Below are positions 51,201-54,762 of a stretch of DNA of 64,000 nucleotides, piece after piece (positions within the stretch are counted from its first letter, which is position 1; the number at the start of each line of letters is the position of its first letter). The stretch lies in NCBI RefSeq assembly GCF_057098645.1, contig NZ_CM169472.1. One strand, written 5' to 3'. The position numbers were made by a program.

Positions 51201-54200
51201 CGCTATATACCGGCCCCAGTTTACGATGAAAGCCGTTCGCCAGTTCCTGCGCCTGATGAATCGCGTTATCAATCGCTGCCTTACGCGCTTTGTCTTTATA
51301 GGCATCTGGCTGCGCCACGCCCAGCGACACAGAACGAATTTCGTTAAGACCCGCCTTCAGCGCGCCATCCAGCAAGGAATTCAGTTTGTCTAACTGACGG
51401 AGCGTGACTTCCACCGTTCTCACAGCGCGGTAGCCTTTAAGGATACTTTTACCATCCTGATAATCATAATCTGGCTGGGTGCGTAAGTTCGCTGAGCTGA
51501 TATCTTTTTTCGCGATCTGATTGAGTTCAAGGAAGGAAATGTATTGTGCGACGCGCTCATCTGCCTGTTTCTTGGCAGTAGCGGCATCCTTCGCGGCCAC
51601 GTTAACTTCAATCGCAAGAGTGGCAATGTCTGGCACCGCATCCACACTTGCCGTACCGGAGGTGACAATATGCGGTCCATCCGGCAATTCGTTAGCCTGC
51701 GCCGCCATCCCGCTAATACCCATTAATGCCGCCAGGGCGATAACTTTGAACTTCACGTTAGTCTCTCCGTGTTAATTGACTTGCCCAAAATTCAGGACCT
51801 CTGGAGGCAAGCTTAGCGCCTCTGTTTTATTTTTCCATCAGATAGCGCCTAACTGAACAAGGCTTGTGCATGAGCAATACCGTCTCTCGCCAGCTGCAAG
51901 GCTATAAACCACATGACACATCCCACTACCAGATTGATAATGCGCTGTGATTTTGCCGTGCGCAGGCGCGGTGCCAGCCAGGCTGCGAGAATAGCCAGAC
52001 CAAAGAACCACAGGAAAGAGGCGCTAATTGTCCCGAGCGCAAACCAACGTTTTGGTTCGACGTCAAGCTGCCCGCCAAGGCTGCCCAGTACAACAAAAGT
52101 ATCCAGGTAAACATGCGGATTCAGCCAGGTCACTGCCAACATGGTGGCGATAATTTTCCATCTTCCTTGCTTCAGGACTTCGGCACTGGCTAACTCAATA
52201 TTACTGCTCATTGCTGTTTTAAAAGCGCCAAAACCATACCAGAGCAAGAAGGCTACGCCGCCCCAGGTGACCAGCACCAGCAACCACGGCGACTGCATCA
52301 ATAACGCGCTGCCACCAAAAATCCCGGCGCAAATCAGGACCAAATCGCTGATAGCACAAAGTAAGGCAATCATAATGTGGTACTGACGACGAATGCCCTG
52401 ATTCATCACAAAAGCATTTTGTGGACCGAGCGGTAGGATCATAGCTGCGCCAAGCGCAAGACCTTGAAAGTAATAAGATATCACGTAATTTATTCCGAGC
52501 TAATTATCTGATTTGCAGACTATAGCGTGTGAGCATCATTAGAGGAAATGGATATTTTTAATAGCATATTAATAATATTAATAATAAGAAAACGAACAGT
52601 CAGGATGCGTGGCTATTTTTTGGATAACAATATCGCTCACAGGAATCGTGCTACGGCCATTACGGCCTCGCTTTATAAAGGACTCACACAATGCATGCTT
52701 ATGATCTTACCCTCTTGCCCCATCCTATCCGCGAAAATATGCCGCGCCAACAAGGTTGGTGCTTTGGCCTACCGCCAGGCATAACGCCCGAACAGTGGCC
52801 GCTGGATCCAAATAATGGTTTCCCATTGAATCATGGATTTACCCTGCTGTTGCCGGAAGATTATCGGATTTATGGGCCAGAGATTGTCGCGTTATCTTTC
52901 TTTGCTGTTGCGCCCGAGCACAACGATGGCGGAACACCATGTATAGAAGAATTATTGGATGTGTTTGAGAATTTTGAGTCCGGAATACCCCCCGAAGATC
53001 CAGACCTTTATGTTTTCTGGCTGGCAGAAAAGCAACGACATCCACGGCTATTTCGGATGGAAGATATATTAGGTTGTTCTTATGCGGTGATTTTACTCAC
53101 CCAGCAAGAGTTCAACGGCCCATTTTGTGAACCGCCTGAACTTATACCTAATCACTATCGCAACCAGCAAGATACACCAGAATGGATGACCACCGGCAGT
53201 GCGTTTAGTTATTTTCAGGCAAGCGTCAGACCAAAAGATACGCCTGAAAGCAATTTTGTATATCGTAAAATGGGCACCATTCCTGAGCAGTCGCTGGCTT
53301 TCAATCTGGCGATTTCATGTAAGCCGCGCGCTTTTGATCCTAATGCGGGAATTAGCCCCACAGAAAGAAATAATACGGAATATCAGTCCATTCGTTATTT
53401 TTCTAAAGATGCAGAGGGAAAGAGTAAATGTGAAACTCACCAGTGGCATAGTGCACATCAACCCGATCATCTCGGTGGTTCAATGGTTCCATTGCAATCT
53501 ATACCAGATGGAATGTCACCTTTTTATATTGAATTTGAAGAATACTTCGGCGGGTATAATTTTGGTACTGGCAATGCGTGGCTGGACTTTAAAAATATGA
53601 AGTTCGATTTTAGTTGTTAAAGTTCACGGCTTTTAATATTAATGACGACCAATAAAATTACAGATGGAACTGAGATGACATTCAAACACTTTTTACTTTC
53701 TCTGGTATCAGGATTACTTCTGATATCTTCCCACAACGTTGCCGCTGAAAAAATTCTTCGTTATACAGACCATGAACCCTACGGGGGAATGCGTACACAA
53801 ATAATTAAAGAGATATTTTTTGCAGAAATTGAAAAAGAGTCGCAGGGGCGTTTGAAAATCGAACCACACTGGAACGGTGAAACCGCCATCAGCTATGACG
53901 CTCTGACGACAATAAGTGATGGTAGCAAAGCTGATATGGGTATAGTGGTACCGGAATACACAGCGAAACAATTACCGCTTCATCAAATCTTCAAGAGCTT
54001 TGCTATTGGCCCGGATCATGGAGCCAGTCAGGTAGAATTCTTTCGTCGCGTATATGCGGAAATTCCCGAATTTAACGCTGAACTTGAGCGTAACAATATC
54101 GTGAATTTACAGTTTTTCCTTGGCTACCCGGTAGGCTTTTTCTCTACCAGGCCCATTGATAAATTGACTGCACTTCAGGGAACCACCTGGCGAACAGCCA

Positions 54201-54762
54201 GTTTCTGGCATCGGGCTTATTTAACTCATACGGGGGCAAAAACCGTAACCTTACCGTGGAATGAGCAAATTACGACAGCACTCCGCGACGGACAACTCGA
54301 TGGCCTAATGGTCAATCTTGATAGCGGATATGACATCCATGCTGAACGTGCTGCGCCGAATGTGTTGCTCTCCCCTTCGCTCTGGCTTGGTCATGTTTAT
54401 CTGTTGGTAATGAATAAACAAACGTGGGAAAACCTTGATAACAGAGATCGTGAGGCTATTCAACGAGCGGCCATTACAACCGAGAAAGCGCTGGGCAAGG
54501 CATTAGATAACAACCTGATCAGCATGGTAAAAACGCTTGAGCAGGAAGGTGCACAGGTTCGCTATTTGAAAAAATCAGAGCTGGACGCCTGGCAGAAAGC
54601 GATTGGTTATCAGCAAGAGCAAACTCAGTGGGTAGAAAAGCAAAATAATGAAGGCGTGGAGAAAGCCGGGGGAGTCATGCAAAAAGTTGCCAATATACTT
54701 GATGAAACAATGCGTTAAATTGGTAGTGCGCCCATGAACTTCATGGGCGCTTTACATGATTA

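What the first reader, a model, noticed from the sequence alone, without database searches (positions are those of the whole stretch)
53675..54718. Orphan DctP/TRAP-like periplasmic binding protein without DctQ/DctM
The protein has a clear Sec signal peptide and block similarity to DctP-family solute receptors (for example ILRYTDHEP...RLKIEPHWNGE...ADMGIVVPEY and FFLGYPVGFFSTRPIDKLTALQGTTWRT). No TRAP membrane components are encoded within at least 9 kb either side. Orphan solute-binding proteins sometimes feed chemoreceptors or sensor kinases rather than transporters.
Basis: partly seen in the sequence, partly recalled or inferred. Interest (0 to 1): 0.55.

Follow-up and report, generated by a model that had tools for sequence, protein, structure and literature searches.

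The report
Stand-alone TRAP-type binding protein in E. coli
This E. coli gene encodes an exported TRAP-type (DctP-fold) solute-binding protein whose whole small clade, in four bacterial phyla, has no transporter genes of its own, so it probably works without a dedicated TRAP transporter; its ligand and partner are unknown.

Summary
Window 53675-54718 (+) encodes a 347-aa exported protein that matches Pfam DctP (E 8.6e-20) and models confidently as a TRAP binding-protein fold. No DctQ or DctM is encoded anywhere in the 64-kb window, nor in the next ~55 kb of a 99.9%-identical genome.

It is not a new island. Orthologues occupy the same argO-mscS slot in many Enterobacteriaceae genera. Only 37 of 5,426 complete E. 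coli genomes keep the gene, and it is under purifying selection (dN/dS 0.22).

It belongs to a compact clade (at least 44% identity) found in Enterobacterales, Alphaproteobacteria, Synergistota and rumen Bacteroidia. Only 3 of the 80 species-genome loci had any DctQ/DctM within 10 kb, each beside its own binding protein. The three nearest outgroups with readable flanks (26-32% identity) all lie in dctPQM operons. Three of four carrier strains checked also lack yiaMNO at its usual locus.

In Synergistota the domain is fused to a carboxylesterase or to weak FMN-binding-like repeats. In Rahnella it follows a TonB-dependent receptor near a tannase/feruloyl esterase.

Best reading: a carboxylate receptor, possibly for aromatic acids, that works independently of a TRAP transporter. 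Ligand and partner are unproven.

The parts
53675..54718 (+). CDS for the 347-aa DctP-fold periplasmic binding protein (stop codon included)
   Evidence: ORF list; RefSeq CDS WP_025380582 at the same coordinates in RM12761; Pfam DctP E 8.6e-20; AF2 pLDDT 91 with TRAP binding-protein fold matches; dN/dS 0.22 against E. marmotae.
53675..53746 (+). Sec-type signal peptide, residues 1-24 (MTFKHFLLSLVSGLLLISSHNVAA, predicted cleavage before EKIL)
   Evidence: Direct reading of the sequence; residues 1-21 have low confidence in the model; every clade member has an equivalent hydrophobic N-terminus. No signal-peptide predictor was run.
54191..54193 (+). Codon for Arg173 (motif TTWRT), presumed to bind the ligand's carboxylate
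   Evidence: Invariant in 17 of 17 aligned clade and outgroup sequences; aligns with the Arg of 'LQGMEIRGAG' in 4NAP/4PGN. That this Arg binds the carboxylate comes from established knowledge of DctP-type binding proteins (SiaP R147) and was not tested here.
54728..54750 (.). Perfect inverted repeat GCGCCCATGAA-C-TTCATGGGCGC between the convergent stops of this gene and mscS; a likely bidirectional terminator
   Evidence: Read directly. The terminator scan did not call it because it has no T-run of 5 or more.
52691..53620 (+). 309-aa cytoplasmic YwqG/DUF1963-fold ORF, 54 bp upstream on the same strand. Probably co-transcribed here, but a later insertion and not part of the conserved unit
51849..52484 (-). 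argO (arginine exporter), the left border of the conserved slot, divergent from the binding-protein gene
   Evidence: RefSeq annotation; argO flanks the binding-protein gene in about 27 related loci.
54760..55635 (-). mscS, the right border of the conserved slot, convergent. Here 291 aa with the ancestral C-terminus ...[11 protein letters not shown]
   Evidence: K-12 MscS is 286 aa and the K-12 alignment breaks inside the 3' end.

Best explanation
The gene encodes a Sec-exported periplasmic protein with the two-lobe DctP fold. It most likely closes around a small organic acid, with Arg173 binding the carboxylate. It belongs to a compact clade (at least 44% identity) that has lost genetic linkage to the DctQ/DctM membrane subunits in every lineage examined. 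In Enterobacteriaceae it is an ancestral single gene between argO and mscS, and a deletion removed it from most E. coli. My committed mechanism is that it captures ligand in the periplasm without a dedicated TRAP permease: it holds the ligand or hands it to a non-TRAP partner instead of docking on a cognate DctQM. The most likely ligand class is an aromatic or phenolic carboxylate, such as hydroxycinnamate, gallate or an indole acid.

Shown here: family, fold, export signal (read from the sequence), conserved Arg, purifying selection, clade-wide absence of linked DctQM, and intact retention in E. coli strains that lack yiaMNO at its usual locus.

Inferred: independence from any TRAP permease (about 0.5), ligand class (about 0.3), and the identity of the partner (unknown).
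For: Family and fold. Arg173, N214 and D216 are invariant through the clade and the canonical outgroups. Purifying selection: dN/dS 0.22 against E. marmotae, with dS 0.35 close to the 0.48 of flanking mscS, which fits vertical descent. Shared argO-X-mscS slot in Yokenella, Klebsiella spallanzanii, Citrobacter, Lelliottia, Superficieibacter, Silvania, Kluyvera and others. Clade-wide orphan status: among the 80 species-genome loci, only L059, L066 and L074 have any DctQ/DctM within 10 kb, each beside its own YiaO-like binding protein. Counting all loci held at that point, 64 of 94 have at least 5 kb on both sides. The nearest outgroups P0258, P0263 and P0268 (26-32% identity) all sit in dctP-dctQ-dctM operons. 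yiaMNO, which to my knowledge is the only TRAP system of E. coli K-12, is replaced by AraC-MFS-GH127 in three of four carrier strains checked, so the gene persists with and without YiaMN. No polytopic membrane neighbour recurs apart from argO. Evidence for use outside transport: in Synergistota the domain is C-terminally fused to a carboxylesterase (Pfam COesterase E 4e-120) or to two FMN_bind-like repeats. Hints to an aromatic acid: top fold matches are TarP bound to cinnamate or coumarate, and the closest sequence matches are 4NAP/4PGN, which I recall as indole-acid complexes; a review confirms only that indole acids are TRAP ligands. Esterase neighbours are a tannase/feruloyl esterase (E 1e-137) in Rahnella and CocE/NonD hydrolases in Synergistota, alongside PadR, MarR and TetR regulators.
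Against: No ligand, partner or phenotype was tested. Whole-genome absence of DctQM was not shown for any carrier genome; only ±10 kb of each locus, the 64-kb window, about 55 kb beyond it, and the canonical yia locus were examined. One carrier strain does have yiaMNO, and many alphaproteobacterial hosts probably carry several TRAP permeases that could act in trans. The esterase and regulator associations come from a few lineages (one genus for the Rahnella arrangement, one phylum for the fusions) and may each reflect a single evolutionary event. The FMN_bind matches are weak (E 0.016 and 0.08). In Enterobacteriaceae the neighbours argO and mscS say nothing about function. Most E. coli have lost the gene, so it is dispensable.
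Confidence: 0.55

Rival explanations
1. It is a conventional TRAP binding protein that delivers its ligand in trans to a DctQM permease encoded elsewhere (YiaMN in E. coli, other permeases in other hosts).
For: It has every sequence and fold hallmark of DctP-type binding proteins, including the Arg. yiaMNO is present in 4,840 of 5,426 E. coli genomes and in one carrier strain. In Enterobacillus the gene lies next to, and divergent from, a YiaO-like TRAP operon (L059). Reviews note that orphan TRAP binding proteins exist (PMC12344293).
Against: Three of four carrier E. coli strains lack yiaMNO at its locus yet keep the gene intact. Linkage is absent from 77 of 80 loci in four phyla, while the three readable nearest outgroups are all linked. 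The fused esterase-DctP and FMN_bind-like-DctP forms are hard to fit with docking on a permease. From general knowledge of SiaP-SiaQM, binding-protein/permease pairs are specific.
Confidence: 0.2
2. It is a periplasmic co-sensor: the ligand-bound protein docks on a sensor kinase or chemoreceptor and controls gene expression or taxis.
For: An EnvZ-like histidine kinase is divergently adjacent in four alphaproteobacterial loci: L073, L074, L076 and L080. Signalling through binding proteins is well documented for other families (PMC8050422).
Against: There is no adjacent sensor in Enterobacterales, Synergistota or Bacteroidia. In the 2021 review, the passages found that mention DctP list DctP-family proteins (SiaP, TarP) only in a table of ligand-induced expression. 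Nine other loci carry a divergent TetR regulator, which suggests ordinary cytoplasmic regulation.
Confidence: 0.15
3. It is a binding-protein-fold protein with a changed function, either a metal or metal-chelate binder or a periplasmic enzyme. The pointers are five clade-invariant histidines (H33, H65, H103, H179, H240) with acidic and aromatic residues, and the TonB-receptor context in Rahnella.
For: The invariant His, Asp, Glu, Trp and Tyr residues sit at strand ends and loops, which I infer face the cleft. In seven Rahnella loci the gene follows a TonB-dependent receptor of the haem/transferrin type by about 115-145 bp, next to a reductase I read as siderophore-interacting and a PadR regulator.
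Against: The carboxylate Arg and the N214/D216 positions shared with canonical TRAP binding proteins are retained. No coordinates were available to check the geometry. The receptor scores below its family cutoff (303 against 324 bits) and the association is confined to one genus.
Confidence: 0.07
4. In E. coli it is a decaying remnant with no function.
For: Only 37 of 5,426 complete genomes keep it. One Escherichia sp. genome (L017) has it split into two ORFs. dN/dS 0.22 is higher than the 0.06 of neighbouring mscS.
Against: It is full length in the 99-100%-identical E. coli matches, which RefSeq annotates as this binding protein (no pseudogene flag in RM12761), and in E. marmotae, E. whittamii and many genera. 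dN/dS is well below 1 and 64 residues are invariant across the clade.
Confidence: 0.03

Closest known systems
DctP-type TRAP solute-binding proteins (Pfam PF03480), such as SiaP, DctP and TarP
   Same: Significant profile match, the same two-lobe fold with a long spanning helix, a signal peptide, and the conserved Arg that binds the carboxylate.
   Different: No linked DctQ/DctM in this gene or in its clade. Only 14-22% identity to any solved member. It scores 20 bits against a cutoff of 175 for the TIGR00787 dctP subfamily, so the RefSeq product name 'C4-dicarboxylate' is not supported.
Desulfovibrio alaskensis Dde_0634 (PDB 4NAP, 4PGN, 4PGP) and D. salexigens Desal_3247 (4N6D)
   Same: Closest solved sequences (profile E 4e-20 and 8e-16). 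The alignment covers nearly the whole mature protein, including the Arg.
   Different: About 20% identity. I recall these as indole-acid binders from a structural-genomics screen; that memory was not verified here, and a review confirms only that indole acids are TRAP ligands. The genome contexts of these two proteins were not examined.
TarP hydroxycinnamate-binding TRAP proteins (PDB 7NR2, 7NRA, 7NTD)
   Same: Best structural matches (Foldseek E about 1e-21, TM 0.72-0.79). The esterase, PadR and MarR neighbours of clade members fit phenolic-acid biology.
   Different: 18% identity. TarP is encoded with TarQM (PMC3610893). Pocket residues could not be compared because no model coordinates or structure paper were available.
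Orphan binding proteins of secondary transporters: Bordetella DctP6/DctP7, the Bug/TctC orphans, AdpC, and the TAXI-GltS system
   Same: Binding-protein genes without an adjacent cognate TRAP or TTT permease. The TAXI-GltS work shows that such proteins can recruit a non-TRAP membrane partner (PMC5812351, PMC12344293).
   Different: This is a single conserved orthologous clade spread over four phyla, not a lineage-specific expansion. No alternative membrane partner recurs next to it.

Membership tests
DctP-type TRAP solute-binding protein (PF03480 / NF037995) | Significant match to the family profile | tested here: met
   Pfam DctP E 8.6e-20 over residues 59-321; NF037995 61.6 bits against a cutoff of 50.
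DctP-type TRAP solute-binding protein (PF03480 / NF037995) | Two alpha/beta lobes joined by a hinge, with a long C-terminal spanning helix | tested here: met
   AF2 model pLDDT 91.3 with a long helix at residues 256-290. All top Foldseek hits are TRAP binding proteins, TM 0.7-0.8.
DctP-type TRAP solute-binding protein (PF03480 / NF037995) | Export to the periplasm (N-terminal signal peptide) | tested here: met
   Read from the sequence: n-region with Lys, hydrophobic core, and a VAA|E cleavage site. No dedicated predictor was run.
DctP-type TRAP solute-binding protein (PF03480 / NF037995) | Conserved arginine that binds the ligand's carboxylate | tested here: met
   R173 is invariant in 17 of 17 sequences and aligns with the Arg of 4NAP/4PGN. 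Its role in binding was not tested.
DctP-type TRAP solute-binding protein (PF03480 / NF037995) | Encoded with, and working through, DctQ/DctM membrane subunits | tested here: not met
   No DctQ/DctM in the 64-kb window or in the ~55 kb beyond it in RM12761. Absent from 77 of 80 clade loci. Functional dependence cannot be tested with these tools.
C4-dicarboxylate DctP subfamily (TIGR00787), the RefSeq product name | Score above the curated subfamily cutoff | tested here: not met
   20.3 bits against a cutoff of 175.05.
Binding-protein co-sensors of two-component systems (TorT/LuxP-like logic) | Binding-protein gene adjacent to the sensor it regulates | tested here: not met
   No sensor kinase near the E. 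coli gene. Only 4 of 80 related loci have a divergent EnvZ-like kinase.
Binding-protein-dependent non-TRAP secondary transporters (TAXI-GltS-like) | A recurring non-TRAP polytopic membrane protein encoded next to the binding protein | tested here: not met
   A hydropathy scan of neighbours within 3.5 kb found no recurring membrane family other than argO in the syntenic slot.
Ligand class: aromatic or phenolic carboxylate binders (TarP-like) | Pocket residues equivalent to those that contact the aromatic ligand | not testable with these tools
   Model coordinates are not exposed to scripts, and the structure papers are not in the library. Only fold rank and gene context support this class.

The most novel reading that the evidence does not exclude
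This clade may be a DctP-fold ligand-binding module that no longer takes part in TRAP transport at all. In that reading the stand-alone proteobacterial forms act as periplasmic sinks or co-receptors for aromatic acids, and the Synergistota forms act as substrate- or product-capture domains attached to extracytoplasmic esterases and flavin-type electron-transfer domains. That would be the first DctP-type lineage with a function independent of a transporter.
Probability: 0.3. Interest if true: 0.7.

Novelty: new variant of a known kind. Interest (0 to 1): 0.45.

Why it matters
DctP-type binding proteins are treated as obligatory partners of DctQM permeases, and orphans are usually mentioned as anecdotes. 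This case differs: orphan status is the rule for a whole conserved clade across four phyla, with a sharp boundary to operon-encoded relatives and with fusions to enzyme domains. If the protein does work without a TRAP permease, the known functions of this fold would widen, much as the 2025 TAXI-GltS finding did for TAXI proteins. It would also provide a tractable model, because carrier E. coli strains differ naturally in whether they have YiaMN. On the practical side, the RefSeq name 'C4-dicarboxylate TRAP transporter substrate-binding protein' over-states what is known.

Tried and rejected
1. Recently acquired island: rejected. Low GC (45% against 51% for the flanks) and presence in only 0.7% of E. 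coli genomes suggested it. However, the same argO-X-mscS slot is occupied in many genera, and dS against E. marmotae matches that of the flanking mscS. The K-12 arrangement is the deletion.

2. Functional pairing with the upstream 309-aa ORF: rejected. That ORF is missing from E. whittamii and all other genera and is a stand-alone gene in Pseudomonas.

3. Functional coupling to argO or mscS: no evidence beyond inherited synteny. The gene is divergent from one and convergent with the other.

4. Promoter and terminator scan of 52400-54900: promoter-like sites were no more frequent than in shuffles, and no terminators were called.

5. Rfam search for a riboswitch upstream of the gene, here and in six related loci: nothing relevant.

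6. PADLOC and PHROGs for both proteins: no hits.

7. Search for a recurring membrane partner among neighbours: none.

8. Literature: no paper found on this clade or gene. The TarP structure paper and Vetting et al. 2015 could not be retrieved, so pocket residues could not be mapped.

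Full report
WHAT IS THERE

The window is E. coli. Positions 52000-55800 are 100% identical to several complete genomes and 99.9% identical to O145:H28 strains RM12761 and RM13516. The ORF at 53675-54718 (+) coincides with a RefSeq CDS named 'C4-dicarboxylate TRAP transporter substrate-binding protein'. It encodes 347 aa with an N-terminus that reads as a Sec signal peptide (MTFKHFLLSLVSGLLLISSHNVAA|EK). An in-frame ATG at 53642 would bury the signal peptide and has no ribosome-binding site, so 53675 is the better start.

The protein matches Pfam DctP (PF03480, E 8.6e-20) and NCBIfam TRAP_S1 above its cutoff. It scores only 20 bits against the dctP subfamily model TIGR00787, whose cutoff is 175. 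The closest solved sequences are Desulfovibrio alaskensis Dde_0634 (4NAP/4PGN) at E 2e-11, or 4e-20 with a clade profile. An AlphaFold2 model (pLDDT 91.3, pTM 0.86) retrieves only TRAP binding proteins from the PDB. TarP bound to cinnamate or coumarate, 4NAP and DctP7 lead the list, at TM 0.7-0.8 and 14-22% identity. Arg173 (TTWRT) is invariant and aligns with the conserved Arg of 4NAP.

No DctQ or DctM is encoded anywhere in the 64-kb window. This was tested with phmmer and with profile HMMs built from four seeds each, run on all six-frame ORFs. RM12761 also has no annotated TRAP permease from 12 kb left to about 55 kb right of the gene.

WHERE IT COMES FROM

K-12 has only 138 bp between argO and mscS. 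In this window a 2.27-kb segment holds a 309-aa ORF and the binding-protein gene, and 37 of 5,426 complete E. coli genomes share that arrangement. The low GC of the segment (45% against 51% for the flanks) looks like an island, but three lines of evidence show otherwise.
- Orthologues at 55-63% identity occupy the same argO-X-mscS slot, without the 309-aa ORF, in Yokenella, Klebsiella spallanzanii and an uncultured enterobacterium.
- Clustering of neighbours shows argO and mscS flanking the gene in about 27 loci. These include Citrobacter, Lelliottia, Superficieibacter, Silvania, Kluyvera, Huaxiibacter, E. marmotae and E. whittamii.
- Against E. marmotae, dS is 0.35, close to the 0.48 of the adjacent mscS, and dN/dS is 0.22.

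This is therefore an ancestral, vertically inherited gene under purifying selection. A deletion removed it from most E. coli and also replaced the last codons of mscS: MscS is 291 aa here and 286 aa in K-12.

THE CLADE AND ITS ORPHAN STATUS

An exhaustive search of 1.84 billion cluster representatives found only four full-length clusters at 44% identity or more, and then a drop to 32% or less. A scan of one genome from each of 100,044 species found 112 relatives, which is a lower bound because the scan is pattern-based. Eighty were kept. By my count from the record titles:

| Group | Loci |
|---|---|
| Enterobacterales | about 44 |
| Alphaproteobacteria | 16 |
| Synergistota | 10 |
| Rumen Bacteroidia, Fibrobacter, Flavobacterium | 7 |
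| Others | 3 |

Of all 94 loci held at that point, 64 have at least 5 kb on both sides of the gene. DctQ/DctM homologues within 10 kb occur only in L059, L066 and L074, each beside its own YiaO-like binding protein. In contrast, the three nearest outgroups with readable flanks (P0258, P0263, P0268; 26-32% identity) all lie in dctP-dctQ-dctM operons. Loss of linkage is therefore a trait of the clade with a sharp boundary. No other polytopic membrane protein recurs next to the gene.

IS THERE A TRAP PARTNER ELSEWHERE IN E. COLI?

To my knowledge yiaMNO is the only TRAP system of K-12. It is present in 4,840 of 5,426 E. coli genomes. In three of the four carrier strains I examined (RM12761, D8, F2_81), the yiaK-S operon at the ysaA-yiaT locus is replaced by AraC-MFS-GH127 genes. 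The fourth strain, ECNB21-M121, has it intact. The binding protein thus persists with or without YiaMN. I could not search whole genomes for other permeases.

CLUES TO FUNCTION FROM OTHER LINEAGES

Outside the syntenic slot the contexts vary.
- Nine mostly alphaproteobacterial loci have a divergent TetR regulator.
- Four loci have a divergent EnvZ-like histidine kinase.
- Citrobacter gillenii, a second Citrobacter and Salmonella diarizonae have a LysR regulator, a ~200-aa ORF that I read as NTF2-like (no family match), and then the binding-protein gene.
- Hafnia has araC, the binding-protein gene, a Gfo/Idh/MocA oxidoreductase, and a transporter carrying Pfam SBF / SBF_like domains.
- In seven Rahnella loci the gene follows a TonB-dependent receptor by about 115-145 bp. 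This pair is divergent from a cluster of a reductase I read as siderophore-interacting, usually a PadR regulator, and in four loci a secreted tannase/feruloyl esterase (PF07519, E 1e-137).
- In Synergistota the domain is the C-terminal part of larger exported proteins. One form has two FMN_bind-like repeats followed by DctP; the Pfam matches are weak (E 0.016 and 0.08) but the motif DLISGAT is present. Another has an FMN_bind-like repeat (read from the sequence), a carboxylesterase (COesterase E 4e-120) and DctP. A metagenomic relative appears from its sequence to carry a metallo-beta-lactamase-fold domain before DctP. These genes lie in operons with MarR, an aldo-keto reductase, an exported nitroreductase-like protein, an S9 peptidase and a CocE/NonD hydrolase; the last two with NCBIfam support, the others read from the sequences.

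Esterases that release aromatic acids, regulators of families that often respond to phenolic acids, and TarP and indole-acid binders as the nearest structures together point, weakly, to an aromatic carboxylate ligand. The clade also has five invariant histidines and many invariant aromatic and acidic residues. I infer that these line the cleft, but I could not check the geometry.

INTERPRETATION

The best-supported reading is a stand-alone periplasmic carboxylate receptor of the DctP fold that no longer depends on a dedicated TRAP permease. What it does with its ligand is not established: hand-over to another membrane protein, signalling or sequestration all remain open. The rivals are ranked in the report sections: a trans-acting partner of a distant TRAP permease, a sensor co-receptor, a metal-binding or enzymatic function, and a non-functional remnant.

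Orphan TRAP binding proteins are acknowledged in the literature (PMC12344293, PMC5812351), and the TAXI-GltS system shows that such proteins can adopt non-TRAP partners. I found no description of this clade. I therefore rate it a new variant of a known kind, of moderate interest. The gene itself is ordinary at first sight and already annotated. The clade-wide uncoupling and the domain fusions are the parts a specialist would not expect.

SIDE FINDING

Noticed in passing
[not shown]
   Followed up: yes
window 54760-55635 (-) compared with L002 4948-5808: MscS here is 291 aa and ends ...[12 protein letters not shown]-12 MscS is 286 aa and ends ...KEDKAA. The deletion that removed the two genes from most E. 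coli also replaced the 3' end of mscS and gave it a different terminator hairpin.
   Followed up: partly
L096 38600-43164; L101 37926-42490; L102 2044-6608; compare L103 3808-12905: In three of four E. coli strains that carry the binding protein, the whole yiaK-S operon (including the TRAP genes yiaMNO) is replaced by AraC regulator, MFS transporter and GH127 glycoside hydrolase genes, leaving a truncated plaR/yiaJ. The fourth strain has the operon intact. Overall about 11% of complete E. coli genomes lack yiaMNO.
   Followed up: partly
L079 7880-10933; L083 7620-9380; L062 1516-3372; protein P0247: Synergistota and related metagenomic proteins fuse this DctP-clade domain to a type-B carboxylesterase, to two weak FMN_bind-like repeats (motif DLISGAT), or to what looks from the sequence like a metallo-beta-lactamase-fold domain. 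I read the surrounding operons as encoding MarR, an aldo-keto reductase, an exported nitroreductase-like protein and an S9 peptidase, with NCBIfam support for the CocE/NonD hydrolase.
   Followed up: partly
L042 3592-10975 (also L044, L047, L051-L053, L055): In Rahnella the gene follows a TonB-dependent receptor of the haem/transferrin type. This pair is divergent from a reductase I read as siderophore-interacting, usually a PadR regulator, and in four loci a secreted tannase/feruloyl esterase (PF07519, E 1e-137). The arrangement looks like an uptake locus for iron-phenolate or phenolic esters.
   Followed up: partly
L017 9920-10975: In Escherichia sp. MOD1-EC7003 the orthologue (97% identity) is split into two ORFs of 182 and 169 aa. 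It has apparently become a pseudogene in that lineage.
   Followed up: no
window about 49950-50850; L001 4589-10850: The LysR gene srsR upstream of yggE is split into two ORFs in the window, matching the internal stop annotated in RM12761. In RM12761, scpA (frameshift) and meaB (internal stop) are also pseudogenes, so the methylmalonyl-CoA (sbm/scp) operon appears to be decaying in this lineage.
   Followed up: no
L016, L025: Contigs labelled 'Collinsella sp. MAG' (97% identical to the E. coli gene) and 'Chryseobacterium sp. 18061' (full enterobacterial argO-mscS synteny) are probably contaminated or mislabelled assemblies.
   Followed up: no
L006 11817-11888 (-): A TwoAYGGAY RNA motif (Rfam RF01731, 46.2 bits, just above the gathering score) lies about 2.8 kb downstream of the Hafnia alvei orthologue.
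   Followed up: no
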